Positions 2,760 to 63,380 of a stretch of 64,000 nucleotides of DNA are shown one piece after another (the stretch's first letter is position 1; every line of letters starts with the position of its first letter). Origin of the DNA: Patescibacteria group bacterium (GTDB lineage: Bacteria; Patescibacteriota; WWE3; UBA101185; UBA10185); NCBI GenBank assembly GCA_049322215.1, contig JBMORU010000001.1, forward strand, positions 969,759-1,033,758. Reading direction: 5' to 3'. The translations under genes and the position numbers were made by a program. A model generated the notes under the pieces. The model was not told the origin of the DNA, did not search any database, and worked only from the letters and a program-made list of their open reading frames with translations.

Positions 2760-2772
2760 CCTATAGTATAAT
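2760..2772 (+). promoter_or_regulatory. CCTATAGTATAAT promoter element, copy 1 of 4 exact copies. It is a -10 TATAAT with a CCTATAG upstream extension and a TTAACA -35-like hexamer 17 nt upstream.
   Basis: Exact 13-mer shared with 10378, 11443 and 12606. It lies 70 nt upstream of the ATG at 2843. Confidence 0.5.
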
Positions 2773-2842: not shown

Positions 2843-3040
2843 ATGAAAATTACAAGCAAAAGCCAGTTAGATGAACAAATCGTTGCCGCCCAAAAAGCCG
2901 CAACACCAATGCCCAATTTCACAATTCCTACCAATCCAACGGAAGGACTTGTGGCGGCTACACTGCATACTCTTCAAGTTGAAGCCAAGAGACATGGGTG
3001 GCCTAATCCTAAGCTTCCAAAGATTTTGGGTCAAAAGTAA
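2843..3040 (+). CDS. hypothetical small protein (65 aa), GC-rich relative to surroundings
   Basis: Strong RBS AAGGAG 6 nt upstream of the ATG. It has its own promoter motif and is followed by an intrinsic terminator. No signal peptide. Confidence 0.5.
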   Translation: MKITSKSQLDEQIVAAQKAATPMPNFTIPTNPTEGLVAATLHTLQVEAKRHGWPNPKLPKILGQK

Positions 3041-10377: not shown

Positions 10378-10390
10378 CCTATAGTATAAT
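10378..10390 (+). promoter_or_regulatory. CCTATAGTATAAT promoter element, copy 2
   Basis: Exact 13-mer, 43 nt upstream of the ATG at 10434. Confidence 0.5.
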
Positions 10391-10433
10391 TAGGCAACTA
10401 TCTGATAAACCAATACAAAAGGAGTACCTTACT

Positions 10434-11366
10434 ATGTACTTTAACAAAAAAATCACGACTTTGCTTTTATGGCTGCTTTTGATTATTTTGATGGCAGCAT
10501 GTGGAAGTGCGGACGATGCGGCAAGTGCTTTGCGCACGGCTGCGGATGCGGTAGAAAGCGTAGGTGAGGCCTCAGAAGATGTTAATGAACTAATTAATAA
10601 TCTTCAACAACCACCTCAAGCAAATAACACTGCACAAACAACCACAACAGACACTACAGGAACAACCGAACAACCCCAAAGTACGCCTGCAACACAAACA
10701 TGTAGTGGACAGGTTCAGTTCAACAACACAACCAGCATGGAGCTCTATGAGCATTACCCTGAGCTTGTCAACATGCAACCTACTCAGGCCAACACACTAA
10801 GCACATCATTTGGGCAGCTGGTATTTTACAACTACACCAACGTCCAAATCGACATGCAGGCCATTTCCAGTGCAGTCGAAAAACTGTACAGCATGGTAGG
10901 TAAGCAGGCTTTTCGGCTAAATACTGGAGGTACACCATACTGCCTTGTTGCAAAATCGTTCCCTAGTAGAACGTTGGTTATTGTTCCTCGCGAAATCGGC
11001 CGTTCGGAACTGACACCTGCGCAAAGCCACACCAACGCGGGCACATTTTTGGCAAGCAACGGCGCGTTTTCTTTCGTGTACTTTGAAAGGGGTTTCGAAG
11101 AAAGAGCCGATCAGGCAGTAAACATGGCAGCCATATTCACAGAGCTATGCAACGTACACCTGGGCATTGTAAGTCCATATTACGATGCAGAGGGTCCAGA
11201 CTGGTTCTGCAATGATTACATTGTGGGAAGCACGTTTAAAATTTTTGGCTTAGAAAGCGACACCAACGGTATTGCAACCAGGGCTAAAAACAACGGTGCT
11301 GACAATTTCTTCTATGTAGTCGATTTTAATGACTATATGGACACGGCACTGTTTAACATCGACTAA
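10434..11366 (+). CDS. lipoprotein, paralog A (310 aa; lipobox MAAC), GC-rich
   Basis: Signal peptide plus Cys. Shares motifs with the next two genes: MELYEHYPELVNMQP, LVIVPREIG, ELCN, DWFCNDY. I counted about 63% GC in 10501-10560. Confidence 0.6.
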   Translation: MYFNKKITTLLLWLLLIILMAACGSADDAASALRTAADAVESVGEASEDVNELINNLQQPPQANNTAQTTTTDTTGTTEQPQSTPATQTCSGQVQFNNTTSMELYEHYPELVNMQPTQANTLSTSFGQLVFYNYTNVQIDMQAISSAVEKLYSMVGKQAFRLNTGGTPYCLVAKSFPSRTLVIVPREIGRSELTPAQSHTNAGTFLASNGAFSFVYFERGFEERADQAVNMAAIFTELCNVHLGIVSPYYDAEGPDWFCNDYIVGSTFKIFGLESDTNGIATRAKNNGADNFFYVVDFNDYMDTALFNID

Positions 11367-11374
11367 TCTATTAC

Positions 11375-11421
11375 GGGATCTAAAGTTTGTTAAAAAAAAC
11401 AAACCTTAGGTCCCTTTTTTT
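11375..11421 (+). terminator. intrinsic terminator (GGGATCTAAAGTTTGTT ... AACAAACCTTTAGGTCCC + T7)
   Basis: Imperfect inverted repeat plus T-run after paralog A. Confidence 0.6.
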
Positions 11422-11442
11422 GTAGGTTTGCTTTATACCAAG

Positions 11443-11455
11443 CCTATAGTATAAT
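11443..11455 (+). promoter_or_regulatory. CCTATAGTATAAT promoter element, copy 3
   Basis: Exact 13-mer, 56 nt upstream of the ATG at 11512. Confidence 0.5.
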
Positions 11456-11511
11456 AGGTTAACGCATTTTTATAACTAAATAACACCGCTCAAACAAGGA
11501 GTTAGGTACAA

Positions 11512-12522
11512 ATGAAAAAAGCAATTGCTTTAGCTTCGCTAATGTTTTTATGGCTGTTAACAGCATGTGCAACAGGGGATGCAAGTTCGTCAAAAAGTGC
11601 AACTGACACTATTTTGGATGAAATTGCGGCAAACATCGTGGAAAGTGATTCTAAGCCTTCAACTGGCCAATTTCCACCACCTCCGCAGGCACCACCTTTA
11701 AATACAAACGCAAGTGGGGATTCAAACAGGGCTGCTTTGACATTGCCAACCACATCTGTGACAAATGCCGTGCCAAATACTACTGAGGTTCCGGCATACG
11801 GTTTGAGGTACGTTTCGTTTGAGAGCATGGAATCTTCAAACGTAGATATGTACGCTCATTTTCCTGCGCTGCATAACTATACCCCGTGGCAAAACTTTAC
11901 AGTAACCTCGGGGGGAATTAGCGTTACATTCGTTAATTTCAACCAAAGCATTAACCTCAACCAAAATGTACTACAACACTTTTTGGATGGGTTAGCTACA
12001 GCATCACAAAGTTGGGTGAATGTTACCAGCGTTGACGGTACCACATACGACCTGCGCATTTCAAAGTCCCAGAGCATTACTGTTATGGTTGCTCCGTACG
12101 ACATAGGTACATCTGATCTTATGAGTGATGAACATACGCTTGGTAACTACCCCGAACAACGCATTCAGGGATACTCGTTAATAACTGGAAGTGGTATTCT
12201 TGGCGTGGTAAAAAGCGATGGTGGAAACGGAACAAATGACTTAATTTTAACTGAAGCATGCAACAGCTTCATTGATTTAAGTCCCAATGGCTTTTACGCA
12301 GAAGATATGGAAATCGCCATTTACAGCAACACCTCTATTGTTCCTGGGGACGCGTTTTGTAACATGTATGCACGCTCTAGCTCTTACACTTCTGGAGGAC
12401 ATGTTACAAATCACCAAGAGCTGTACAGCTTTATGAGCACGCTTACTGTTTTTGGTTACCAGTACATGTATTTGCCTGAGCAATTATTTGGCGGGTACAT
12501 AACACAGTATGTAACAAACTAA
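11512..12522 (+). CDS. lipoprotein, paralog B (336 aa; lipobox LTAC)
   Basis: Motifs VDMYAHFPALHNYTP, ITVMVAPYDIG, TEACNSF, DAFCNMYA. Confidence 0.6.
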   Translation: MKKAIALASLMFLWLLTACATGDASSSKSATDTILDEIAANIVESDSKPSTGQFPPPPQAPPLNTNASGDSNRAALTLPTTSVTNAVPNTTEVPAYGLRYVSFESMESSNVDMYAHFPALHNYTPWQNFTVTSGGISVTFVNFNQSINLNQNVLQHFLDGLATASQSWVNVTSVDGTTYDLRISKSQSITVMVAPYDIGTSDLMSDEHTLGNYPEQRIQGYSLITGSGILGVVKSDGGNGTNDLILTEACNSFIDLSPNGFYAEDMEIAIYSNTSIVPGDAFCNMYARSSSYTSGGHVTNHQELYSFMSTLTVFGYQYMYLPEQLFGGYITQYVTN

Positions 12523-12528
12523 TATACA

Positions 12529-12573
12529 GGTTCAACTTTTAGGAAAAATCCCTACAAGTTGAACCTTTTTTTT
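12529..12573 (+). terminator. intrinsic terminator (GGTTCAACTT ... AAGTTGAACC + T8)
   Basis: Perfect 10-bp stem plus T-run. Confidence 0.7.
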
Positions 12574-12605
12574 ACTTAAAAGAAAAACCTTTTCACGTGC
12601 AAGAG

Positions 12606-12618
12606 CCTATAGTATAAT
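12606..12618 (+). promoter_or_regulatory. CCTATAGTATAAT promoter element, copy 4
   Basis: Exact 13-mer, 44 nt upstream of the ATG at 12663. Confidence 0.5.
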
Positions 12619-12662
12619 ATGGAAATTGCTTACCCAATAAACTAACTAGAAGGAGATTTAAA

Positions 12663-13493
12663 ATGAAAGGTAAAGCAACTCTGTATGTAGTAATACTGCT
12701 TCTCGTGGTAGCGTTGTTAAGCGGATGTACCAATGAAGAGGCTGTTTCGACTTTGACAACTGTAATTGAGGATGCAACAGGCAGTACTCAAGTAGAAAAC
12801 ACAAATCCAGACCAAGGCGGCACTATAAATGTTAGTGGCACGGCCAACCTGGATATTTATGCACACTATCCACAGTTGGCTAATGTGACTCCATTAGAGG
12901 ATTTCACGCTTACATCACCTGCAAGCTACGGTTATTCCGTACGCATTGTGAATTACAGCCATTTATCTGTAAACTCCGCTGCGGCCGGTCAATACCTTGA
13001 CTTGTTGCACTGGTTTGCGTGGAACAAAGTCACAGCTTTGGATATGAAAAATGTTGACCATTATATTTACATAAAGAATGTGCCAACTACCCAGCATGTT
13101 TTAGTAATTGTGCCCCAAGAAGTAGGTGCTTCGGTACTTATGCCAGAAGGAAACAATGTTAGAGGGGGCACACAAACTGGCACAAACGGTACGTTTGCAT
13201 TTTCTATGTTTAACGCGCAAACGCTTGATGTAAGCGAAAAAGGCAAAAATGAACTGAGGTTACTAGTTGAATTATGCAACTCATTCATTGGTGCCGGCAA
13301 TAATGGTTACAACTCTGGAGAAAGCGATGCTTTTTGCAATTCATATGCTACTGCTACGGTGCTAAAAGCGTTTGGTCTCAAACAAAATCTACAAGAAGTA
13401 ATTGACGCCTCTAAAGATGGCCAGTGGGGAAGTTATACCTTTATGTATATCAACTCCTGGGACGCATATATAGGCGCGCAAGTAACTAACTAA
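12663..13493 (+). CDS. lipoprotein, paralog C (276 aa; lipobox LSGC)
   Basis: Motifs LDIYAHYPQLANVTP, VLVIVPQEVG, VELCNSF, DAFCNSYA. Confidence 0.6.
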   Translation: MKGKATLYVVILLLVVALLSGCTNEEAVSTLTTVIEDATGSTQVENTNPDQGGTINVSGTANLDIYAHYPQLANVTPLEDFTLTSPASYGYSVRIVNYSHLSVNSAAAGQYLDLLHWFAWNKVTALDMKNVDHYIYIKNVPTTQHVLVIVPQEVGASVLMPEGNNVRGGTQTGTNGTFAFSMFNAQTLDVSEKGKNELRLLVELCNSFIGAGNNGYNSGESDAFCNSYATATVLKAFGLKQNLQEVIDASKDGQWGSYTFMYINSWDAYIGAQVTN

Positions 13494-55372: not shown

Positions 55373-56359
55373 TTAAATTAAACTATTAATTTCGTCAGCA
55401 GTATCATCAACATCTTTATGAAACTTTGTGTGAATGTCTTTTAGCTGTTTATTTGTAACATGCGTATATATTTGGGTAGTAGACACATTAGAATGACCTA
55501 ATAGCTCTTGTACAGAACGTAAATCAGCACCCTCAGACAAAAGTCCGGTAGCAAATGTATGACGCAAAGTGTGTGGAGTAGCATCAATAGACAATCCGGC
55601 TCTAGTAACGTATTTTTTTATCATACGTTGCACACTTCTAGGCGTTAATCTTAAAGATTCGCCATCTTCATCACCAACTTCCATACGCTTGCCAGAATAA
55701 CGTAAGAATAAAGGTACGAAATTATCTCTACGCGTAGATAAGTAACGCTTTAACCAATCTTTAGCGCTAGGACTTAAATAAACTGTACGAACTTTTCGAC
55801 CTTTACCTACAACGGTAAATTCTCCTGAATTTAAATTTATGTCAGATACATCTAAATTTACTAATTCGCTTACACGTAACCCAGTGCTAAATAGGGTTTC
55901 AAGCATAGCTCTATCACGAATACCTGATTTCTTACTTAAATTTTGTGTTGAAAACAAGCCCTGCAATTGTTCTTCATTTAAAACTTTAGGAACACGTGCC
56001 TCTGGTTTACCTAAAATTATTTGTTCGGGGGATACTGTGTCTAAACCTAACTCCACCACAATGTATTTCAAAAAGGCACGAATTGCGACAAGAAATGTTT
56101 TTTGTGTAGATTTCTTGAATTCTTCATGCGATTTATTACTTATACGTCGGTTTAAATTTAAACGATACTTTCTAAGTAGTTCTTGATCAATATCGGATAC
56201 GTAAAAATCATCCTTCTTTAAATATGCCTTAGACCACTCAATAAAGTCATTTAAATAAAAATCGTACATACGAATTGTATTTTGAGAAAGGTTTTTTTCA
56301 ATTTCACAATGTTCTAAATAACGCGTAAGTAATTCTTTTAGAGATTTGGTCATAAACAT
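55373..56359 (-). CDS. tyrosine site-specific recombinase (XerC/XerD family)
   Basis: ...HTLRHTFATGLL...LLGHSNVSTTQIYTHV (R, H-x-x-R, and Y nucleophile). Confidence 0.8.
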   Translation of the reverse strand: MFMTKSLKELLTRYLEHCEIEKNLSQNTIRMYDFYLNDFIEWSKAYLKKDDFYVSDIDQELLRKYRLNLNRRISNKSHEEFKKSTQKTFLVAIRAFLKYIVVELGLDTVSPEQIILGKPEARVPKVLNEEQLQGLFSTQNLSKKSGIRDRAMLETLFSTGLRVSELVNLDVSDINLNSGEFTVVGKGRKVRTVYLSPSAKDWLKRYLSTRRDNFVPLFLRYSGKRMEVGDEDGESLRLTPRSVQRMIKKYVTRAGLSIDATPHTLRHTFATGLLSEGADLRSVQELLGHSNVSTTQIYTHVTNKQLKDIHTKFHKDVDDTADEINSLI

Positions 56360-56767
56360 ATGTTAACAAGAGTTAGAAAATTTTCAAACATAGAACATAG
56401 ATTATGCAAGTTTAAGATTTTGTAGACCTAGCATTAAAATTTACTCATTACATGTGATGCATAAGTCAACTAAAAAATAAAAATTGCTTACAGGGCATTC
56501 TAGAGCCTCACACCCATTATTTACTGTCACAACAACAAATAGTAAGAATCAGCATGTTTAAAACTGCTAAAAATGTAATGAAATAAAAAAAGACAAGTGA
56601 GGTATATACGCAAGAAATGAAAATGCGGCATTAAACGTTGAATAGAGTAGCTGCGCCGCAAACTAAAAATAAATTAACATACAATTAAACAAAAATTTGT
56701 TTGGTATTAAAAAGTAAATTAATTTGGATCAAATTATAGGGAACAGGTTAGAATATTAAAAAATACA

Positions 56768-56797
56768 AGACGTCGTATAATGTATGTTTAACGACGC
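56768..56797. other. candidate dif-like Xer recombination site: 11-bp arm ACGTCGTATAA, 6-bp spacer TGTATG, 11-bp arm TTTAACGACGC
   Basis: Imperfect palindrome (8 of 11 arm positions match). The core CGTATAATGTATGTT matches the E. coli dif core CGCATAATGTATATT (from memory) at 13 of 15 positions. It lies about 410 bp upstream of the xer gene. Confidence 0.4.
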
Positions 56798-57010
56798 CGA
56801 GGATTTATATGTATTGCAAGCACATAGATTCAACTGAATAGGGAGGCTTAATGGGATCACTCTATTAAAGCAGTTAATTTAGAAGAATTAATTATGTATT
56901 AATAAGTATTATTTATAGCTATTTATTTATTAATTCAGTTTTTATTTACGGCTTAGTAAAATTAATTCTTACTTGAGTACAAATTAAGTTATGCACAATT
57001 AACTTGAAAA

Positions 57011-57092
57011 GTATGACAACCCTCCCCTAGCCAAAGTATGACAACATAAACTATGACATTCTTACTTAAATTGCTTAACTAACTATGACAAC
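57011..57092. repeat. four direct repeats of TATGACA(A/T)(C/T): three copies TATGACAAC and one TATGACATT, at irregular spacing; iteron/operator-like
   Basis: Copies at 57011, 57036, 57051 and 57084, in the 840-bp AT-rich non-coding region. Confidence 0.4.
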
Positions 57093-57110
57093 ATTACAAC
57101 AAGCATTAGT

Positions 57111-57125
57111 GTAATAATACTATAG
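57111..57125 (-). promoter_or_regulatory. CCTATAGTATTAT promoter-like element on the minus strand (12 of 13 identical to the CCTATAGTATAAT motif), pointing into the non-coding region toward xer
   Basis: Reverse complement of TAATAATACTATAGG. Confidence 0.35.
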
Positions 57126-57197
57126 GTATTAGCAAATATAACTATGGGGTGTTAACAGCACTAGCACTTCCCTGCCTTCAGTTTTAGTCCTGTTTGT

Positions 57198-57992
57198 TTA
57201 AGGCTTAAATACAAGCAATAGTAGTAAAAATAATACTGTTACTAAAGAATATTCAAAAACAAATCTATTTGTTATTTTATTTTTTAAATGGGCTTGTAAG
57301 TAACCAATTCCCGACATCAAAATTGACGCATCAAACATTGCTAACAAAAAAGATTCTGTAGGTATAAATGAAACACTGATGCTCAAGGAAAAGACAACGA
57401 AGGAAACTAAGAAACTACCTATTAGTACGTCCCCTATTTTAAATACTTTAGAATCTTCATCAAAGCGTTGCGACCAAAAAGTGTAAACACTAAATAAAAA
57501 AGTTGAGCCACTAATAATTAAACTCTGGAAAACTGAGATTATAGGTACTTTAAAGATACCTGCAAAATAGGGAATACATACAACTACTATTAATATTTGG
57601 CTCCAGGTAACAGCGACTCTATATAAGGGAATGAGCTCGTTTTTTTGCTGCACAACAAGAAATATATTATTCATTAACGCAATAGCGTATGTAATTACAA
57701 ATAAAGCCCCCAGTGCCCCTACAACTACAAGTTTGCTTAAGTTTGGAAAAAACACTAAGGATAATAACGCCCCGATTACCGCATGAATATGTAAAAGTAT
57801 TACAGGTAAAGTGAGTTTAAAGCTGTTTATTGGTAAATGAATTAATACCCCACCTAAAACACAAAAAAGCAAAGACCCAACAAGAAAATAAAGACGCAAC
57901 TCCCCTGCTACAAAAGAAAAAAAATACAACAGAACAACCTGCACTAAAGCATATATAGAATATTTAACTTTTTTTGATATGACAAAACTCAT
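57198..57992 (-). CDS. polytopic membrane protein, hypothetical
   Basis: About 8 hydrophobic helices. It overlaps ruvC by 4 nt, indicating an operon. Confidence 0.5.
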   Translation of the reverse strand: MSFVISKKVKYSIYALVQVVLLYFFSFVAGELRLYFLVGSLLFCVLGGVLIHLPINSFKLTLPVILLHIHAVIGALLSLVFFPNLSKLVVVGALGALFVITYAIALMNNIFLVVQQKNELIPLYRVAVTWSQILIVVVCIPYFAGIFKVPIISVFQSLIISGSTFLFSVYTFWSQRFDEDSKVFKIGDVLIGSFLVSFVVFSLSISVSFIPTESFLLAMFDASILMSGIGYLQAHLKNKITNRFVFEYSLVTVLFLLLLLVFKP

Positions 57993-58480
57993 TTTACCTT
58001 CACTTTTATATAGTCTTTATGAAAGTAGCAGAGACCCATTGCCACAGCATCATTAGCATCATCAGGTCGTAATATCTCCTCTAGGTTCATAAATTGTTTA
58101 ACTGCTGACTGCAACTCTTTCTTATTAGCTCTTCCATAGCCTGTTAAAACTTGTTTGGCTTGTAAAGCAGTATATTCAATTATTTGCACATCATAATGAG
58201 CAGCAACTAGCAAAGGTATTCCCCGAGCTTGACCTACAGACATCGCGGTTTTAACGTTAGTGTTAAAAAACAAGCGTTCTATTACCATAACCTCAGGCGT
58301 ATGTACTTTCATAAGTTCGTGAAGGTTTTCATAAAGCATTCGTAGCCTTTTAGACATAGCTATACCGGCAGGTGTAGAAATAACAGCGCTATCAATCAAC
58401 TCTGGTTTTTGACTTCCGTTAAATTTTAAGACACCATAGCCTGTGGAGGCAGTGCCTGGATCTATACCTAGGACTATCAT
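57989..58480 (-). CDS. ruvC: Holliday junction resolvase RuvC
   Basis: MIVLGIDPGTASTGYGV...VIERLFF. Confidence 0.85.
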   Translation of the reverse strand: MIVLGIDPGTASTGYGVLKFNGSQKPELIDSAVISTPAGIAMSKRLRMLYENLHELMKVHTPEVMVIERLFFNTNVKTAMSVGQARGIPLLVAAHYDVQIIEYTALQAKQVLTGYGRANKKELQSAVKQFMNLEEILRPDDANDAVAMGLCYFHKDYIKVKVK

Positions 58481-58511
58481 GCTTTATAATTTTAACATAT
58501 ACGAATTGTAA

Positions 58512-59066
58512 CTAGTTTAAATACTTGTCTGGTATATCAAAATTAGCATATACCTCTTGCACATCATCTTGATCTTCAAGCAAATCTATAATTCGTAGTA
58601 AAGTTTTTGCTTGAGACGGGTCTTCTACGGGAATTTCAAAACTTGGCTCCCCTGTTATGACATCAAAAATATAGGCAGTACTACCTGCTTCACCTAAAGA
58701 GCCTCCATTTTTGTTAAATATGGTTCTTATTTCTGCTACTGTTCTATTTTTGTTATCAGTGAGTGCCGATACATAAAAAGCCACTCCCCCAGGGCCATAC
58801 CCTTCATAAGAGACTTCAATAAAAGCGGCGCCATTACCTGCACCTAAACCTTTTTGAATAGCTTTTTCAATATTATCTTTTGGCATACTGGCCTTTTTTG
58901 CCTTATCAACAGCTAAACGCAACCTTGGATTTGCATCTATGTCTCCCCCACCCTCTTTAGCAGCCACAGATATTAAACGACTCATTTTAGAAAAAACTTT
59001 GCTTTTTTTTGCATCGTTCGCATTTTTTGTTCTTTGAATGTTTTTCCATTTAGAATGTCCTGCCAT
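58512..59066 (-). CDS. yebC: YebC/PmpR-family transcriptional regulator (short, 184 aa)
   Basis: [12 protein letters not shown]-terminus; yebC-ruvC synteny. Confidence 0.8.
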
Positions 59067-59143
59067 AACTCAAATAATATCACATGAAGCCTAAGTTAGA
59101 GCAAATGTTTGCCAACCAACTTAAGAAATGTTAGTTTTCATAC

Positions 59144-59827
59144 ATGAAATCAAATGCACATGCACTAGGAAAAAAAGCCATAAAAGCAGCCTTAAATAAA
59201 GATTGGAAAGCTGCTGTTGAACTTAATCTGGAAGTGTTGGAGGAAGCACCAAAAGACATACCCGCAAAAATCAGATTAGGAAGAGCCTATTTAGAGCTTA
59301 AAGAGTTTGCAAAGGCAAAAAAACTGTTTAAAGAGGTCTTAGAATCAGATCCTATAAATTCTGTAGCAAAGAAAAATTATGAATTAGCAAAAAGTAAAAC
59401 TGTAGTAAAAGACGCGATCATAGATAAAAAAAGCTTAATCAGAGAACCAGGTACTACAGATGTAGTTTGGATGGAAATAATAGCGCCAAGAATTACAGCT
59501 AATAACTTTAAACCAAAAGAAATGCTCAACTTTAGAATTAACAAAAATACAGTAACAATATTAAAGGAACATTCTAAAAGTGGTGAAACAGACATTCATG
59601 TAGGTAATATAGAAAAAGATTATGCAGCTAGATTAAAAAAGGCCAAAGACAAAGAAGCTGAAATAACAATTCAATTCATTGAGGGCAATGACAAACAAAT
59701 TAAGCTTGAATTGACTTCAACTGAACCAGTTTTTAGGGCAGAAAAGCAAGAAGTCAGACCTTACTTTAAACAAGATAATACAATCATAGAGGAAAGCCCC
59801 TTCGCTGACATAGACGATGAAGAATGA
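59144..59827 (+). CDS. TPR-repeat-containing hypothetical protein
   Basis: N-terminal TPR-like helices (KAIKAALNKDWKAAVELNLEVLE...LGRAYLELKEFAKAKKLFKEVLESDP). Confidence 0.5.
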   Translation: MKSNAHALGKKAIKAALNKDWKAAVELNLEVLEEAPKDIPAKIRLGRAYLELKEFAKAKKLFKEVLESDPINSVAKKNYELAKSKTVVKDAIIDKKSLIREPGTTDVVWMEIIAPRITANNFKPKEMLNFRINKNTVTILKEHSKSGETDIHVGNIEKDYAARLKKAKDKEAEITIQFIEGNDKQIKLELTSTEPVFRAEKQEVRPYFKQDNTIIEESPFADIDDEE

Positions 59828-59830
59828 GAA

Positions 59831-59860
59831 AGGCCGCATTATTAAATGCGGCCTTTTTTT
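59831..59860 (+). terminator. intrinsic terminator (AGGCCGCAT tattaa ATGCGGCCT + T7)
   Basis: Perfect 9-bp GC-rich stem plus T-run after the TPR gene. Confidence 0.8.
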
Positions 59861-59890
59861 CGTTTGCTAAATAACTAACCCGTAAATTCT

Positions 59891-60724
59891 TTAACGCAGA
59901 TCCTCATCATTAATTACACTAGGATCAAATTCCTTCAGCTCTGGCTCTATCTGAGTGGATGAGGTAGGTTGGGTTTTGGGCGTTAAAGGTTCTGTAGGCA
60001 TTTCCAAAGCTTCTACAGGCGGTACTGGTGGTACTGGTGGCTTTACAACATCAACCGAAGGTGGTGGAGGTGCAACCGGCTGAGGGGCTGGTGTAGAAGG
60101 CTCAAGAGGAATATCCCCTGCAGGCGCAATCACTTCCTGTGGCTGCGGAGGCACAGGAGTAGAGTTAGGTGTGGGAGATTCAGCTAAACTAGGTGCATCC
60201 GTAGCTGTTTTAGAAGGTGCTACCGACTTTTCATCTTTCACAACGCTATCAAGAGTGGCAAAAGGTGCTTTTAAATTATTTGCAGGAACTTCAACACGAA
60301 CTTTATTGTTTACCTCTAAATCGTTAAAGCTTGCAGCAGCCTCAGAAATAACATATGAACCGGCATCTGTTAACACATGCCACTGACCATCTTTTTTAGA
60401 AACTACGCCTTCTAAAATCTTTCTGTCGATTTTTTCCACTTGCTTAAATAATTTCTTCCCACCGTCTTCAATCATTTTTAAGGTATCGCCATAGGCCAGC
60501 ATTGATTTCGCAGCATAATTGGGGTTAACCTCATACTTCTGACCGTCTTCAGTAATCATATTGAACCCATCAAACACTCCCATAACACCGGGTACTTCTC
60601 TGTAGGACACTTTTGTGGCCTCATCAACCGTTTTTAAAAGCGCCTTAACTTTAGCTAAACTTTTTTCTATAGCATCAATTTGAGATTTTATAGAATTTAT
60701 GTCTTTTGATATATCGGCAGACAT
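59891..60724 (-). CDS. hypothetical protein with a Pro-rich C-terminal half
   Basis: PVPPQPQ...PAPQPVAPPPPSVDVVKPPVPPVPPV. Last gene of the minus-strand unit with the VirD4-like ATPase. Confidence 0.45.
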   Translation of the reverse strand: MSADISKDINSIKSQIDAIEKSLAKVKALLKTVDEATKVSYREVPGVMGVFDGFNMITEDGQKYEVNPNYAAKSMLAYGDTLKMIEDGGKKLFKQVEKIDRKILEGVVSKKDGQWHVLTDAGSYVISEAAASFNDLEVNNKVRVEVPANNLKAPFATLDSVVKDEKSVAPSKTATDAPSLAESPTPNSTPVPPQPQEVIAPAGDIPLEPSTPAPQPVAPPPPSVDVVKPPVPPVPPVEALEMPTEPLTPKTQPTSSTQIEPELKEFDPSVINDEDLR

Positions 60725-60770
60725 TTGCCTCCTCTCATTTAAGTTTGTAAACTGACGGGCATTCTACAAT

Positions 60771-63332
60771 TCATTTGGAATGCCCAGTACTTTTCTCTGT
60801 TTCCATGGCTTTTCGTGCTTTATGCTCTTGGGAGATAGCTAAACCTTTATCGAACTGTCTATCTACCCAACGACGTATTCTTTCCTCTACAATGCGTCTA
60901 TCTGTACCGTAGTTTTGTCTACTTAGTTGAAGAGCACGTTCTCTGTTGGTAGCAGATCTAGGTACAAACGGTGGAACAGACTTTGCAGAAAAAGGCAAAG
61001 AAGTTGTTCCATTAATTACCATCTTAATATACATATTATACTTATCCAATGAAATTATATCGTTTGGAGTAAATTGAGGTGCAAACTCATTTGCAAGCAA
61101 TCGGGCATCACTCGCACCTAACCCAAAGGCAGCAATTGTTCCAACATTACCTAACACAGCACTCAATAAATAATCAGGAAGCTGAGATGTATATTGATGC
61201 GTTAGGTACAAACCTAGCTTATATTTACGTGACTCTGACAAAATAGACTCAAAACTACCTGTAGCAAAGTTTTGAAACTCGTCTACATATAAGTAAAATT
61301 CTCTTCTTTGTTCTGGGGCTAATTTTGCTCTTTGCAAGGCCATAAATTGAATTCTAGATACTAATAAGGCACCTAACAAATTGGCATTATCTTCACCTAC
61401 TTTACCTTTTGATAAATTTAGCAAAAGTATTTTTCCTGTATTCATGGCGTCCCAAATGTTAATTGTGGATTTTGGTTGACCCAATATATTTCGAATGGTT
61501 GTGGAAGCTAGAAATCTGTTTATTTTATTTTGTATGGGGGCAACCGCTTCTGTAGCTAATTTAGCATTCCCTCGCATAGCTGCGTACTCCTTTTCCCAAA
61601 ACTCCAAAACAACTGGGTCTTTTATATAGTGAAGAATATATTTTTGATAGTTCATGTCTCCAAGTAGGCGTGTAATAGAAAGCATGGTTGTGCCTGGGAC
61701 CTCAAGCAAAGTCAAAATAGCATAGTTTAACAAGTATTCTAACCTGGGTCCCCAGGAATATTCAAAGTGCACTTTAATTGCCGAAACAAGAGCAGATGCC
61801 ATTAAGTTTTTTTGTGACTGATCCTCTATTTCAAGTAAGTTAATTCCCACAGGATACGCAGTGTCAGAAGGATCAACTATTATTACATCTTTTAATCTGT
61901 GATCAGGAATATATTCCAAAACGTGGTCTATTAATTCGCCGTGTGGATCTAATACACCAACACCAAAACCATTATATATATCTTGCGTAATCATTGTTTC
62001 AAACAATGTCGACTTACCTACACCGGTTTTACCAATTAAATACATATGCCTTAAACGATCTCCCGTTGTATTATCTATACCAAAGGCAATACTCTGGCCT
62101 CTGTATGTAGTACGCCCAATATAGCAACAGTTTTCCGTTGGTAGATGTGAAGGGGGCTCCCCTTTTTTAGAATAAATCCATGACATATTAGGAGTTTCTA
62201 CATTAGATGTAGGCAAATGAAATATAGAAGCCATTTCAGTAATGTTTAATACATAACTGTTTTCCGTACTAAAAGTACGCGCCTTATATTTTTCAAAAGC
62301 CAATGAATTACTTACCTCATGATTAGTAATAAAGCTATTTAAGTTAGATGTGGAAAACTGGCGCATCGAGGCAGAAAAAGACCTTACTAGGTTTTTTGAA
62401 CGCTCCTGAGAATTAGAAGAAGCCAAAATTCTTATACTTACCTCAAAACCCATTTTCTCTAGCTTTGTTTCTATTGCTTCTACCATAACTTCTTCGGAAC
62501 CGGTTAGCTCTGGTTTCTCTGGAGCACTAGGGCCGGAAGACTGCTTACTACCTAAACCACTATCAGCAGAACTTCCAGCCAAAGCATCCGCAATTCCTCC
62601 AACTACGGCATATGTTAATGTTAAAAGTAAATCCAAAACAAAATCTAAAACATTGAAACCTTTTCTTTTTGATACAGCTTTTCCTGTAAGTAATTCTTTC
62701 ACATAATCGTAACCTTCTTCTTGCCAAACATCTGCAATTGGCCGTACAAGTAATTGTAACCACACAGTTTCCCCTTCTTCGGCCTCAGATAAAGCAGAAG
62801 TTAATGCAGCTAATGGGTCTACTTCAAAATCTCTAAATGTCTTTATAGGAAATATTTGGTTTTTTAATAAATTCATGTGAGCAACTTCAAATTTTTTATC
62901 TATAGGCTCAATGGCGTAGTCATCTACACGTTCGATGTGCGCTTCAGGGTATTGTGCATAAATTTGGCTTTCTACAAATTTATAAATGTGTCTAGGAACA
63001 ACAGCAAAAAATCTAATACCTTTAGCGTCTGAAGTTATTTCAAAAGTAAAGTGTTCTTGAACACCTGCATCTTCTCGCAACAATCCGTGCAAAGAAGCAA
63101 ACATCTGTTCTGCGGCAATAGGGGCTGTTTTGGTTACACCAATTTCAGGCATATCGCTCCAGGGAACCTGTATTTGAAGAAACACAGGATCATCAATTTT
63201 TTCTTCAACTATAGGTGTATCTTTTCTTTTTTTGGCTAAAACTAAAACTACGACAATTACTGCCACTAATGGGATAACAAGTAAAAAAGGTAAAATGGGC
63301 TGTAAAGAATTAAATATCTGATTAAAATTCAT
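60771..63332 (-). CDS. VirD4/TraG/TraD-like (type IV coupling protein-like) P-loop ATPase with an N-terminal TM and about 400-aa unknown domain (start revised to the ATG at 63332)
   Basis: Walker A LIGKTGVGKST. Walker B / TraG-D_C-like FYLYVDEFQNF. Perfect SD AAGGAGGTG 9 nt upstream. The listed start at 63344 is GTG. Confidence 0.6.
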   Translation of the reverse strand: MNFNQIFNSLQPILPFLLVIPLVAVIVVVLVLAKKRKDTPIVEEKIDDPVFLQIQVPWSDMPEIGVTKTAPIAAEQMFASLHGLLREDAGVQEHFTFEITSDAKGIRFFAVVPRHIYKFVESQIYAQYPEAHIERVDDYAIEPIDKKFEVAHMNLLKNQIFPIKTFRDFEVDPLAALTSALSEAEEGETVWLQLLVRPIADVWQEEGYDYVKELLTGKAVSKRKGFNVLDFVLDLLLTLTYAVVGGIADALAGSSADSGLGSKQSSGPSAPEKPELTGSEEVMVEAIETKLEKMGFEVSIRILASSNSQERSKNLVRSFSASMRQFSTSNLNSFITNHEVSNSLAFEKYKARTFSTENSYVLNITEMASIFHLPTSNVETPNMSWIYSKKGEPPSHLPTENCCYIGRTTYRGQSIAFGIDNTTGDRLRHMYLIGKTGVGKSTLFETMITQDIYNGFGVGVLDPHGELIDHVLEYIPDHRLKDVIIVDPSDTAYPVGINLLEIEDQSQKNLMASALVSAIKVHFEYSWGPRLEYLLNYAILTLLEVPGTTMLSITRLLGDMNYQKYILHYIKDPVVLEFWEKEYAAMRGNAKLATEAVAPIQNKINRFLASTTIRNILGQPKSTINIWDAMNTGKILLLNLSKGKVGEDNANLLGALLVSRIQFMALQRAKLAPEQRREFYLYVDEFQNFATGSFESILSESRKYKLGLYLTHQYTSQLPDYLLSAVLGNVGTIAAFGLGASDARLLANEFAPQFTPNDIISLDKYNMYIKMVINGTTSLPFSAKSVPPFVPRSATNRERALQLSRQNYGTDRRIVEERIRRWVDRQFDKGLAISQEHKARKAMETEKSTGHSK

Positions 63333-63380
63333 TTGTTTGTACACCTCCTTAGCATAAAAATAGCTTTATAAACACATCAA

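What the first reader, a model, noticed from the sequence alone, without database searches (positions are those of the whole stretch)
57011..57125. Iteron-like TATGACAAC direct repeats plus an orphan CCTATAGTATTAT promoter facing the non-coding region
Four direct repeats occur within 82 bp: three TATGACAAC and one TATGACATT. Immediately upstream on the minus strand is a copy of the window's recurrent promoter motif, oriented to transcribe through the repeats, the AT-rich tract and the dif-like site toward xer.

This could be (i) a long regulated 5' leader, (ii) an unannotated ncRNA, or (iii) a protein-binding array such as iterons or an operator. No ORF longer than 60 aa exists here.
Basis: seen in the sequence. 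Interest (0 to 1): 0.55.

Follow-up and report, generated by a model that had tools for sequence, protein, structure and literature searches.

The report
Iteron array beside the chromosome dif site
The four TATGACAAC repeats are real, conserved protein-binding-type repeats ("iterons") that, with a DnaA box and an AT-rich spacer of fixed length, form an undescribed non-coding module on one side of the chromosome-dimer-resolution site (dif) of WWE3-type candidate-phyla-radiation bacteria, so a plasmid-origin-like element sits where the chromosome's two arms converge.

Summary
Observation confirmed. Four same-strand copies of TATGACA(A/T)(C/T) lie at 57012-57092, and CCTATAGTATTAT lies at 57114-57126 (-).

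The window is a Patescibacteria (WWE3/Katanobacteria-like) chromosome. In about 75 related loci the repeats recur at the same place and in the same orientation. They are 19-bp units (GtAnGnT-TGTCATA-nnTT), 2-5 per locus, mostly 21-25 bp apart. About 25 bp further on, in register, comes a DnaA box (perfect TGTGGATAA in 51 of 55 loci). Then comes a spacer of 206 +/- 12 bp holding the most AT-rich 100 bp of the window, then an invariant 28-bp dif-like site, then xer.

A G-rich heptamer (TAGGGGA) is strictly polar and flips strand exactly at that site, so it is a true dif.

No RNA signal was found: no Rfam hit, no fold excess, no consensus structure, no terminator. The promoter-like CTATAG box is present in only 30 of 50 loci and in either orientation.

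Best reading: a DNA-level iteron array belonging to a dif-coupled nucleoprotein module.

Unresolved: the architecture equals an iteron plasmid origin, and third-codon-position strand asymmetry does not invert at dif. A unidirectional origin next to dif therefore cannot be excluded.

The parts
57079..57097 (-). Iteron 1 (core TTGTCATA; + strand TATGACAAC at 57084-57092). It is the farthest from dif.
   Evidence: The unit limits come from the 68-copy logo.
57047..57065 (-). Iteron 2, a variant core aTGTCATA (+ strand TATGACATT at 57052-57060). It overlaps iteron 3, with 15-bp spacing.
57032..57050 (-). Iteron 3 (core TTGTCATA followed by CTTT; + strand TATGACAAC at 57037-57045).
57007..57025 (-). 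Iteron 4 (core TTGTCATA followed by CTTT; + strand TATGACAAC at 57012-57020). It lies 25 bp from iteron 3 and 21 bp before the DnaA-type box.
57021..57033 (-). G-rich tract GGCTAGGGGAGGG between iterons 3 and 4. It contains the polar heptamer TAGGGGA pointing toward dif.
   Evidence: The equivalent GGTGGGGTGGGG tract is seen in relatives.
56989..56997 (-). DnaA-type box TGTGCATAA (= TTATGCACA, which fits TTATNCACA). It is the positional homologue of the perfect TGTGGATAA found in relatives.
   Evidence: Perfect box in 51 of 55 loci. 17 perfect boxes in the module against 2 elsewhere in 210 kb.
56874..56973 (.). AT-rich tract (GC 15%), the most AT-rich 100 bp of the 64 kb window. It is part of the roughly 200-bp fixed-length spacer between the box and dif.
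   Evidence: Spacer length is 205.7 +/- 11.7 bp in 55 loci. The 80-90% AT core lies 60-120 bp after the box.
56770..56797 (-). dif-like core: ACGTCGTTAAA / CATACA / TTATACGACGT in xer orientation (11-bp inverted arms with a 6-bp centre).
   Evidence: identical or nearly identical in 20 relatives; 52 metagenome loci. The polarity switch of TAGGGGA falls exactly here.
56665..56764 (.). Second AT-rich tract (GC 17%) on the xer side of dif.
57114..57126 (-). CCTATAGTATTAT, a promoter-like CTATAG box pointing toward the iterons.
   Evidence: The homologous box in relatives is variable in presence and orientation.
57140..57151 (-). Second CTATAG-type box (CACCCCATAGTT). It is the homologue of the box that sits inside a TAGCA..TGCTA hairpin in relatives.
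57165..57181 (-). Purine-rich box CTGAAGGCAGGGAAGTG just after the stop codon of the upstream gene. Relatives have GAAGTAGGGGAG here, a polar-motif copy.
55373..56359 (-). xer, a single Xer-type tyrosine recombinase gene (328 aa).
   Evidence: It is 68-77% identical in WWE3 relatives.
57198..57992 (-). Conserved 264-aa polytopic membrane protein gene, the last gene of the yebC-ruvC operon. It ends about 100-200 bp before the array in all relatives.
56493..56507 (-). Conserved GGCTCTAGAATGCCC motif, preceded by a TTGTTGT..ACAA palindrome (56520-56542), upstream of xer. It is a likely xer control region.
   Evidence: where the motif recurs in most relatives at -60 to -130 from xer.

Best explanation
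The repeats are iterons: binding sites on double-stranded DNA for a sequence-specific protein that has not been identified.

They are one component of a conserved non-coding module of about 430 bp attached to one side of the chromosomal dif site of WWE3-type Patescibacteria. Its order is: polar G-rich motif, an optional CTATAG box, 2-5 phased 19-bp iterons, a DnaA box in register with them, an AT-rich spacer of about 205 bp, the dif core, and xer.

I think the array and DnaA most likely assemble a nucleoprotein complex that bends or opens the adjacent AT-rich DNA. It would act in cis on what happens at dif. It could be a one-sided accessory arm that controls Xer recombination or the processing of the terminus, in the way accessory sequences work at plasmid cer/psi sites.

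Shown:
- The repeats, their unit, phasing, orientation and conservation.
- Their exclusive linkage to dif.
- The nature of the site as dif.

Inferred:
- That proteins, including DnaA, bind here.
- That the output is control of dif or terminus events rather than replication initiation.
For: Repeat unit and conservation:
- The repeats are conserved in orientation and position in 20 genomes whose Xer is only 68-77% identical.
- A pattern search found 52 further metagenome loci carrying the array with a dif-like site behind it.
- A logo from 68 copies extends the 7-bp core to about 19 bp. Gaps between neighbours cluster at 21-25 bp (21 of 47), with a second class at 59-72 bp.
- All copies are on one strand: 45-57 on top against 0-5 on the bottom.

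DnaA box:
- The box follows the last iteron at 27 +/- 5 bp (mode 25), which is the array's own period.
- It is perfect in 51 of 55 loci.
- Perfect boxes number 17 in the module against 2 elsewhere in 210 kb.

Coupling to dif:
- The box-to-dif distance is 205.7 +/- 11.7 bp, although the spacer sequence is not conserved.
- By contrast, dif-to-xer varies from about 285 to 955 bp (positions).
- Every genuine array-plus-box hit in the metagenome scan with enough flank is followed by a dif-like site. None lies in another context.

The site is a true dif:
- TAGGGGA/AGGGGAG is polar and flips exactly at the site: 12:0 on the + strand for window positions before 55.3 kb, and on the - strand after 57 kb.
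- In 20 relatives the counts are 27:2 on the left and 1:36 on the right.
- In 41 metagenome loci AGGGGA is 89:11 on the left and 5:86 on the right.

No RNA signal.

The CTATAG hairpin loop is inverted between lineages. Double-stranded DNA can tolerate that; an RNA loop could not.
Against: - No binder is identified. The flanking genes are a polytopic membrane protein and Xer, and no Rep-like or other DNA-binding family was found within +/-7 kb.
- No chromosomal dif known to me needs accessory sequences. A KOPS-like polar motif also suggests an FtsK-type, not an accessory-protein, control of recombination.
- The combination of phased iterons, a DnaA box and an AT-rich tract is the signature of replication origins, not of recombination accessory arms.
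- No A-tract periodicity, and so no sign of intrinsic bending, was found in the spacer.
- The box-to-dif distance shows no strict helical phasing (range 180-224 bp).
Confidence: 0.4

Rival explanations
1. Plasmid-type replication origin next to dif. The iterons (bound by an unknown initiator), the DnaA box and the AT-rich tract form an oriV-like origin. It would fire unidirectionally, away from the iterons, through dif and xer. Origin and terminus of the roughly 1 Mb chromosome would then coincide, and the iteron array would also be the place where the fork finally arrives.
For: Architecture matches iteron origins:
- Phased 19-bp repeats, an in-register consensus DnaA box, and the most AT-rich 100 bp of 64 kb lying 60-120 bp beyond the box.

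Third-position asymmetry does not invert at dif:
- At 4-fold-degenerate sites the strand asymmetry stays the same across dif. In the window plus its extensions (66 kb on the xer side, 21 kb on the other), genes on the window + strand have A>T. Genes on the - strand have T>A in their coding strand, on both sides of dif.
- The same holds in 21 genomes and in 41 metagenome loci out to 8-15 kb.
- The G/T-rich strand, the usual leading strand, is the one running iterons -> box -> AT tract -> dif -> xer.

Gene orientation:
- On that reading 31 of 52 window genes and 13 of 14 genes on the other side are co-directional with the fork.

Published precedent:
- Near-linear cumulative GC skew in Microgenomates UBA1400 genomes led the authors to propose an origin next to the terminus and unidirectional theta replication (PMC7143001).

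Neighbourhood:
- Replication genes lie nearby (dnaB, gyrA, gyrB, holB).
Against: - Whole-sequence GC skew, gene orientation and the polar motif all converge on the locus (left +0.09, right -0.06 in 21 loci). This is the classical terminus picture.
- The first 15 kb on the xer side (guaB-like, rnhB, nrnA, gyrA) would be head-on to forks leaving the origin.
- There is a single DnaA box only.
- No rep gene is adjacent, and no dnaA or dnaN lies within 87 kb.
- A fork-meeting point displaced from dif by more than 66 kb (xer side) or more than 21 kb (other side) would explain the missing inversion under ordinary bidirectional replication. In the complete RAAC2 genome the locus lies at 51.8% of the record; the record's start convention is unknown.
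- No bacterial chromosome is known to replicate this way.
Confidence: 0.2
2. Polar replication-fork barrier (Ter-like). The protein-bound, uniformly oriented array stops forks on one side of dif, so that termination happens next to dif.
For: - The array is uniformly oriented and lies 230-400 bp from dif, at the convergence point of the polar motif.
- Protein-bound direct-repeat arrays can block forks (established knowledge).
- There is a faint resemblance of ATGTTGTCATA and of the TTGTTGTAACAACAA palindromes to the E. coli Ter core GTTGTAAC. This resemblance is from my own recollection of Ter.
Against: - The array lies on one side of dif only, with no oppositely oriented array on the xer side (right-side counts 4 against 2).
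- Third-position strand asymmetry does not change at the array in more than 60 genomes, so forks do not habitually stop here.
- The fixed distance to dif and the DnaA box are not explained.
- No Tus or RTP-like gene is nearby.
Confidence: 0.07
3. Transcribed element. The CTATAG promoter drives a non-coding RNA, or a long xer leader, in which the repeated UUGUCAUA motifs bind a protein or base-pair with targets.
For: - The window copy matches a motif that precedes four genes of this genome.
- In several relatives CTATAGGG is followed by a TAnnnT hexamer 13-14 nt before the first iteron.
- In the window the dif palindrome is followed by a T-run that could terminate a transcript of about 335 nt.
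Against: - No Rfam family in the window or in 13 relatives.
- Folding z-scores are -0.16, -1.23 and -0.26.
- There is no consensus structure over 18 sequences. In 5 close relatives both strands score alike, as DNA palindromes would.
- There is no conserved hairpin plus U-tail after the box.
- The box is present in only 30 of 50 loci and in either orientation.
- The T-run after dif is specific to the window.
- The 21-25 bp phasing and the register with a DnaA box have no meaning for an RNA.
Confidence: 0.1
4. Operator array. The repeats bind a transcription factor that regulates the neighbouring promoter(s), for example xer or the yebC-ruvC-membrane operon.
For: - In many relatives the first iteron starts 13-14 nt after the CTATAGGG box, an operator-like position.
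- TGTCA-type palindromes also occur just upstream of xer.
Against: - The distance from the array to xer varies from about 550 to 1300 bp, with dif in between.
- The array lies downstream of the operon that ends beside it.
- The coupling is to dif and to the DnaA box, not to a gene start.
Confidence: 0.08

Closest known systems
Iteron-type theta origins of plasmids and secondary chromosomes (RK2 oriV, pSC101, P1 oriR, F oriS, Vibrio chromosome 2)
   Same: Directly repeated units of 17-22 bp in one orientation at a period of about 22 bp, one or a few DnaA boxes next to them, and an adjacent AT-rich tract. Several of these replicons fire unidirectionally, away from the iterons, and carry a multimer-resolution site nearby.
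   Different: No initiator (rep) gene is adjacent. The element is chromosomal and lies at the convergence point of gene orientation, GC skew and a KOPS-like motif. It sits at a fixed distance from dif, and autonomous replication is untested.
Accessory sequences of plasmid Xer sites cer (ColE1) and psi (pSC101)
   Same: A one-sided arm of some 180-200 bp next to a Xer core site. It binds architectural proteins and acts only in cis on recombination. Its geometry relative to the core is fixed while its sequence is poorly conserved.
   Different: Here the site is the chromosomal dif of a single-Xer system. The arm is about 430 bp, and its recognisable sites are iterons and a DnaA box, not ArgR/ArcA/PepA sites. 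A KOPS-like motif suggests translocase-driven control as well.
Single-recombinase dif modules XerS/difSL (streptococci, lactococci) and XerH/difH (Helicobacter, Campylobacter)
   Same: One Xer gene sits immediately next to its near-palindromic dif site at the terminus, with polar purine-rich motifs converging on it (as with GAAGAAG in Lactococcus).
   Different: As far as I know, those modules have no phased repeat array, DnaA box or fixed AT-rich spacer on the far side of dif. The WWE3 Xer scores below the NCBIfam cut-offs for XerC, XerD, XerS and XerA.
Tus-Ter (E. coli) and RTP-Ter (B. subtilis) fork traps
   Same: Polar protein-binding sites in the terminus region close to dif.
   Different: Traps consist of oppositely oriented sites on both sides of the terminus. 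Here all copies lie on one side in one orientation, and strand asymmetry does not switch at them.
KOPS / SRS / AIMS polar motifs (GGGNAGGG, GAGAAGGG, GAAGAAG)
   Same: TAGGGGA(G) is G-rich, independent of gene strand, and inverts exactly at dif.
   Different: The sequence is different, it has not been described for Patescibacteria in the literature I could search, and the reader protein is unknown.
Proposed unidirectional replication in Microgenomates UBA1400 (Kadnikov et al. 2020, PMC7143001)
   Same: A related CPR lineage with small genomes and a strand asymmetry that does not invert. The authors proposed that origin and terminus lie close together.
   Different: That proposal rests on whole-genome GC disparity and names no element. 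Here the asymmetry is seen at third codon positions (mainly A/T) over at most 87 kb, and whole-sequence GC skew does invert at dif.

Membership tests
Iteron-type plasmid/chromid origin | Three or more direct repeats of 17-22 bp, same orientation, at a period of about 22 bp | tested here: met
   The unit is 19 bp, with 2-5 copies (mode 4), neighbour gaps of 21-25 bp and a single orientation.
Iteron-type plasmid/chromid origin | DnaA box(es) and an AT-rich tract adjacent to the iterons | tested here: met
   A perfect box occurs in 51 of 55 loci, about 25 bp after the last iteron. An AT core of 80-90% lies 60-120 bp beyond it, and this is the lowest-GC 100 bp of the window.
Iteron-type plasmid/chromid origin | Cognate initiator (rep) gene next to the iterons | tested here: not met
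   The neighbours are xer and a 264-aa membrane protein. There is no Rep family hit within +/-7 kb, nor among the called genes of L054 and L336.
Iteron-type plasmid/chromid origin | Supports initiation of replication | not testable with these tools
   This needs marker-frequency data or a replication assay.
Chromosomal oriC | Cluster of several DnaA boxes, usually beside dnaA or dnaN | tested here: not met
   There is one box per locus. No dnaA or dnaN lies in the 87 kb examined.
Chromosomal oriC | Divergent gene orientation, a GC-skew minimum and divergent polar motifs | tested here: not met
   All three converge on the locus.
dif / Xer chromosome-dimer resolution site (context of the array) | 28-bp site with two inverted 11-bp arms and a 6-bp centre, one per locus, beside or near a Xer gene | tested here: met
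   ACGTCGTTAAA-CATACA-TTATACGACGT lies 285-955 bp upstream of xer and is nearly invariant in more than 70 loci.
dif / Xer chromosome-dimer resolution site (context of the array) | Located where polar (KOPS-type) motifs and the replichores converge | tested here: met
   The TAGGGGA polarity switch falls at the site, and total GC skew and gene orientation converge there. Third-position skew does not switch there.
cer/psi-type accessory sequences | One-sided arm at fixed geometry next to the Xer core | tested here: met
   The array and box lie on the non-xer side only. The box-to-core distance is 206 +/- 12 bp in 55 loci.
cer/psi-type accessory sequences | Binding of architectural proteins (ArgR/ArcA, PepA) and resolution selectivity | not testable with these tools
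   I looked for no ARG-box or ArcA-type site, so binding and topology need experiments.
Tus-Ter / RTP-Ter fork trap | Oppositely oriented polar sites on both sides of the terminus | tested here: not met
   Counts are 45:0 on the left side, against 2 top and 4 bottom scattered copies on the right side.
Known structured RNA families (Rfam 15) | Covariance-model match at or near the gathering score | tested here: not met
   There were no matches in the window or in 13 relatives at gathering threshold. In 56300-57260 only two chance hits appeared, at E values of 5 and 6.
Sigma-70-type promoter (for the CCTATAGTATTAT box) | -10 hexamer with a suitably spaced -35, conserved position and orientation relative to a transcribed unit | tested here: inconclusive
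   The window has TATTAT with no -35, and the consensus scan did not call it. The same 13-mer with TATAAT precedes four ORFs. The box is absent from 20 of 50 relatives and its orientation varies.

The most novel reading that the evidence does not exclude
The module is the chromosomal replication origin of WWE3-type Patescibacteria. It would be a plasmid-like, iteron plus DnaA-box origin placed directly beside dif that fires in one direction only, away from the iterons and through dif and xer. Origin and terminus would then coincide, and the dif-centred polar motif would serve segregation independently of replication direction. This would give a molecular basis to the unidirectional theta replication proposed for related Microgenomates from their skew (PMC7143001).
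Probability: 0.2. Interest if true: 0.95.

Novelty: new variant of a known kind. Interest (0 to 1): 0.72.

Why it matters
Nothing is published, in the library I could search, on dif, Xer, KOPS-type motifs or origins in Patescibacteria. This locus supplies three things at once for one large CPR class:
- a well-supported dif site with its single Xer;
- a candidate FtsK-orienting motif, TAGGGGA(G);
- a conserved accessory module of unprecedented composition.

If the module controls Xer recombination, it is the first chromosomal dif with an accessory arm, and one that recruits DnaA.

If it is an origin, a free-standing bacterial chromosome replicates like a unidirectional plasmid. That would change how skew, coverage-based growth rates (iRep/PTR) and genome curation are interpreted for these lineages.

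Either reading is directly testable with public metagenome reads and simple in-vitro assays.

Tried and rejected
1. Known RNA. Rfam found nothing at gathering threshold in the window or in 13 relatives, and a permissive scan of 56300-57260 gave only chance hits. ARAGORN found no tRNA or tmRNA.

2. RNA structure. Single-sequence folding of both strands was no better than shuffles. Alignment folding gave no consensus for 18 sequences, and for 5 close relatives both strands scored equally. A search for a hairpin plus U-tail after the DnaA box gave weak, inconsistently placed hairpins. The terminator scan found none.

3. Link to phage or plasmid iterons. A triple TTGTCATA array pattern hits 58 viral contigs, including jumbo phages with 7-15 cores at 21-bp phasing. 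Two composition-matched control 8-mers give 66 and 85 hits, so no relationship can be claimed. PHROG annotation of the flanking phage genes was uninformative.

4. Generality in other CPR classes. Gracilibacteria, Peregrinibacteria and Doudnabacteria xer loci (Xer 39-47% identical) show no dif-like palindrome, DnaA box or repeat array upstream of xer.

5. Intrinsic bending of the spacer. There is no 10-11 bp AA/TT periodicity.

6. A strand-biased oligomer that does not flip at dif (a Chi-like compass). Only generic T-rich words were found, at about 3:1.

7. Candidate binder among the neighbours. The 264-aa protein is polytopic membrane, the 277-aa protein is coiled-coil plus proline-rich, and the 154-aa protein is not conserved. 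None has a Pfam or NCBIfam hit.

8. Similarity of the iteron to the Xer arms or to the DnaA box. By eye this is only partial (for example ..GTT...CATA..) and not convincing.

9. Literature. Searches for the repeat sequence returned primers only. The RAAC2 paper says nothing on origin or skew. The paper on the Patescibacteria SOS motif is not held.

10. Genome coordinates of this organism's 1.11 Mb contig could not be obtained.
Full report
**The observation**

The region 56360-57197 is an 838-bp gap without ORFs longer than 60 aa. It lies between xer (55373-56359, -) and a 264-aa ORF (57198-57992, -).
- TATGACAAC occurs three times in the window, all on the + strand, at 57012, 57037 and 57084.
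- TATGACATT is at 57052.
- The degenerate pattern TATGACAWY has 8 matches in 64 kb, against 2.4 expected, and four of them fall within 82 bp on one strand.
- The repeated units are longer than 9 bp: AAAGTATGACAAC occurs twice, and AACTATGACA..TTAC occurs twice.
- CCTATAGTATTAT is at 57114-57126 (-). It is one base away from CCTATAGTATAAT, which occurs four times on the + strand. Three of those copies lie 45-55 nt before start codons, and the fourth precedes a called 65-aa ORF.

**Where the window comes from**

The Xer protein is identical to a protein of a Patescibacteria MAG on a 1.11 Mb contig. Its closest relatives (68-77% identity) are from candidate division WWE3. The window holds ordinary chromosomal genes:
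- pheST, a class A PBP, a class I aminoacyl-tRNA synthetase gene (Trp/Tyr type) and recG;
- pyk, nusB, rnc and trmD;
- a 20-kb type IV pilus operon;
- holB, gyrB, ppa, gyrA, nrnA, rnhB and a guaB-like gene;
- xer;
- on the other side of the gap, the membrane protein, ruvC, yebC, a TPR protein and a HerA/TraD-like ATPase.

No tRNA, tmRNA or Rfam family is present.

**The repeats are conserved and belong to a larger module**

I examined 20 WWE3 genomes fetched through Xer. The same architecture lies upstream of xer in all those with enough sequence. Read in the direction of xer, it runs:
- the stop codon of the membrane-protein gene;
- a purine-rich box (GAAGTAGGGGAG);
- one or two CTATAG boxes;
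- two to five copies of (N)TTGTCATA, the reverse complement of TATGACAA, all in one orientation;
- a G-rich tract;
- TGTGGATAA, the consensus DnaA box;
- an AT-rich stretch;
- the invariant sequence GTCGTTAAACATACATTATACGAC;
- 285-955 bp further on, xer.

A pattern search of metagenome contigs for two repeats plus the box returned 72 stretches. Of these, 52 have the dif-like sequence 181-223 bp behind the box, and 9 end too early to tell. Three of the remainder have a diverged version of the dif-like site. The rest are unrelated sequences (coding or eukaryote-like, and tandem repeats) or a palindromic chimera. No genuine copy of the array plus box was found in any other genomic context.

**Anatomy of the array**

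A logo of 68 copies extends the invariant TGTCATA to about 19 bp. The conserved flanking positions are G at -7, A at -5, G at -3 and T at -1, then T at +9 and +10.
- Gaps between neighbouring copies cluster at 21-25 bp (21 of 47), with a second class at 59-72 bp, about three periods.
- In the 20 relatives, TTGTCATA occurs 45 times on the top strand and never on the bottom strand on the array side of dif.
- The DnaA box starts 27 +/- 5 bp (mode 25) after the last copy. That is the array's own period, so the box is in register.
- The box is perfect in 51 of 55 distinct loci. The window has TGTGCATAA (56989-56997), which still fits TTATNCACA.
- Perfect boxes number 17 in the module of 20 loci, against 2 elsewhere in 210 kb, where 1.6 are expected by chance.
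- The distance from the box to the dif-like core is 205.7 +/- 11.7 bp (range 180-224) in 55 loci, although the spacer sequence is poorly conserved.
- The spacer's core, 60-120 bp after the box, is 80-90% A+T. In the window it is the most AT-rich 100 bp of all 64 kb (56874-56973, GC 15%). The second most AT-rich stretch lies on the other side of the core.

**The neighbouring site is a true dif**

The core is ACGTCGTTAAA-CATACA-TTATACGACGT, two 11-bp inverted arms around 6 bp, as in Xer sites. An unbiased search for oligomers that point toward the site from both sides picked TAGGGGA/AGGGGAG far above general purine bias.
- In the window TAGGGGA occurs 12 times on the + strand before 55.3 kb, including inside the 20-kb operon that is coded on the - strand. 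It never occurs on the - strand there. After 57 kb it occurs only on the - strand.
- In 20 relatives the counts are 27:2 on one side and 1:36 on the other.
- A 21-kb stretch of a Logan contig of the same organism gives AGGGGA 12:0 and 0:4.
- In 41 further metagenome loci AGGGGA gives 89:11 and 5:86.

This is the behaviour of KOPS/SRS-type motifs that orient FtsK-like translocases toward dif. Total GC skew (+0.09 on the left, -0.06 on the right) and gene orientation also converge on the locus in all 21 loci. I found no paper that treats dif or Xer in Patescibacteria.

**RNA or DNA?**

Nothing supports an RNA:
- There is no Rfam family, even at permissive thresholds.
- Folding energies are indistinguishable from shuffles on either strand.
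- There is no consensus structure for 18 sequences. In five close relatives both strands score alike, as conserved DNA palindromes would.
- There is no conserved terminator after the box.

It is detectable in 30 of 50 loci, sometimes as CTATAGGG and sometimes as the complementary CCYATAG. In several lineages it sits in the loop of a TAGCA..TGCTA hairpin whose loop is inverted relative to other lineages. In the window it resembles a real promoter type of this genome, so transcription into the array is possible here, but it is not a conserved feature.

The points that speak for recognition of double-stranded DNA by proteins are:
- the 21-25 bp phasing;
- the register with a DnaA box;
- the strict polarity relative to dif;
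- the tolerance of an inverted loop.

**What it does**

The shown facts are a phased iteron array, an in-register DnaA box and an AT-rich spacer of fixed length. All are locked in cis, on one side, to the chromosomal dif.

I think it most likely (0.4) that this is an accessory arm. A nucleoprotein complex, made of an unknown iteron-binding protein plus DnaA, would act on events at dif, in the manner of the one-sided accessory sequences of cer and psi.

The weaknesses of this reading are:
- no binder is identified among the neighbours;
- no bending periodicity is seen in the spacer;
- no chromosomal dif is known to need such an arm;
- this exact triad is the hallmark of iteron-type replication origins.

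**An unexplained observation that bears on the rival**

At 4-fold-degenerate sites, genes on the window's + strand have A>T and genes on the - strand have T>A in their coding strand. This holds over the whole window and its two extensions, 66 kb on the xer side and 21 kb on the other side of dif.

The asymmetry therefore belongs to the DNA strand and does not invert at dif. The same holds for third positions in 21 genomes and for 41 metagenome loci out to 8-15 kb.

The G- and T-rich strand, the usual leading strand, is the one that reads iterons -> box -> AT tract -> dif -> xer.

There are two possible readings:
- The fork-meeting point is displaced from dif by more than 66 kb (xer side) or more than 21 kb (other side).
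- Forks pass this locus in one direction only.

A published analysis of related Microgenomates genomes found near-linear cumulative GC skew. Its authors proposed that origin and terminus lie close together, with unidirectional theta replication (PMC7143001).

An iteron plus DnaA-box origin beside dif, firing away from the iterons, would fit both the architecture and the asymmetry. I give it 0.2. Against it stand:
- the convergent total skew and gene orientation;
- the head-on position of the first 15 kb of genes on the xer side;
- the single DnaA box;
- the absence of a rep gene;
- the lack of any precedent for a chromosome.

The same asymmetry argues against a fork barrier (0.07), because forks evidently do not stop here, and the array has no opposed partner. 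An operator function (0.08) and an RNA (0.1) are the remaining rivals.

**Comparison with known systems and novelty**

The module works like, but cannot be filed under, three known kinds:
- iteron origins, because the rep gene is missing and replication is untested;
- oriC, because it has one box, no dnaA nearby and convergent context;
- Ter traps, because it is one-sided.

It shares geometry with cer/psi accessory sequences, but with different sites and on a chromosome. It extends the single-Xer, gene-next-to-site modules XerS/difSL and XerH/difH.

More distant CPR classes lack it. Apparent phage counterparts did not survive a control.

I rate it a new variant of a known kind, with a realistic chance of being something more.

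**Limits**
- All inference is from sequence.
- The whole genome of this organism or of a complete relative could not be read.
- The position of the locus in complete records (51.8% in CP006914, about 22% in MEWB01000001 and Ga0208373_1000006) cannot be interpreted without knowing where those records start.

Noticed in passing
window 17416-55297 (+ strand) and 57023-62770 (- strand); also L001-L021, L054, L336 and L264-L335: TAGGGGA/AGGGGAG is a strictly polar G-rich motif, independent of gene strand, that inverts exactly at the dif-like site. It is a candidate KOPS-type (FtsK-orienting) sequence for WWE3 bacteria.
   Followed up: yes
whole window, L054 and L336 (87 kb); L001-L021; 41 metagenome loci: At 4-fold-degenerate sites, + strand genes have A>T and - strand genes have T>A in their coding strand, on both sides of dif. 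This strand asymmetry does not invert where the polar motif, total GC skew and gene orientation do.
   Followed up: partly
window 2760-2772, with the ORF at about 2843-3040 (+): The fourth copy of the CCTATAGTATAAT promoter motif looked orphan, but it is followed by a called 65-aa ORF with no family hit. A 9-10 bp inverted repeat (TGTTATTGG..CCAATAACA) lies just after the promoter.
   Followed up: partly
window 10378-13493: Three consecutive genes of unknown function (310, 336 and 276 aa, no Pfam hit) each have their own perfect CCTATAGTATAAT box 45-55 nt before the start codon, as if strongly and separately expressed.
   Followed up: no
L043 4045-5001: In this relative about 950 bp separate dif from xer, and a second partial dif arm (ATGTCGTTAAAC) lies about 60 bp before xer. 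This looks like a small element inserted at dif (IMEX-like).
   Followed up: no
window 56493-56542 (- strand): A conserved GGCTCTAGAATGCCC motif, preceded by a TTGTTGT..ACAA palindrome, lies 60-130 nt upstream of xer in most relatives. It could be a xer operator or leader element. In one relative (L014) the palindrome inside the array is GTTGTCATGACAAC, two iteron cores head to head.
   Followed up: no
window 60771-63344 (-): An 857-aa ATPase with DUF8128, HerA/DUF87 and TrwB-like regions, but no FtsK_SpoIIIE hit, lies 4 kb from dif and is conserved in synteny. It is a possible DNA translocase.
   Followed up: no
window 58512-59066 (-): The yebC ORF is only 184 aa, where the family model is about 245 aa. 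It is the same in an independent Logan contig, so this is not a sequencing error of this assembly.
   Followed up: partly
L109, L092, L097, L069, L086, L089 (viral contigs of 100-284 kb): These jumbo-phage contigs carry 7-15 same-strand TGTCATA cores at strict 21-bp phasing, with variable spacers, in a non-coding stretch of about 450 bp. This is probably a phage origin or partition site. Controls show that the shared core may be coincidence.
   Followed up: partly
L264 2608-3253: This metagenome contig holds two inverted copies of the whole module with many small indels between the arms. It is most likely a chimeric (palindromic) assembly or amplification artefact.
   Followed up: partly
L273 645-702: A contig from an unrelated low-GC organism (GC 29%) has ATGACAttTTGTCAT palindromes abutting a perfect DnaA box. 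It is a different element with the same core.
   Followed up: no
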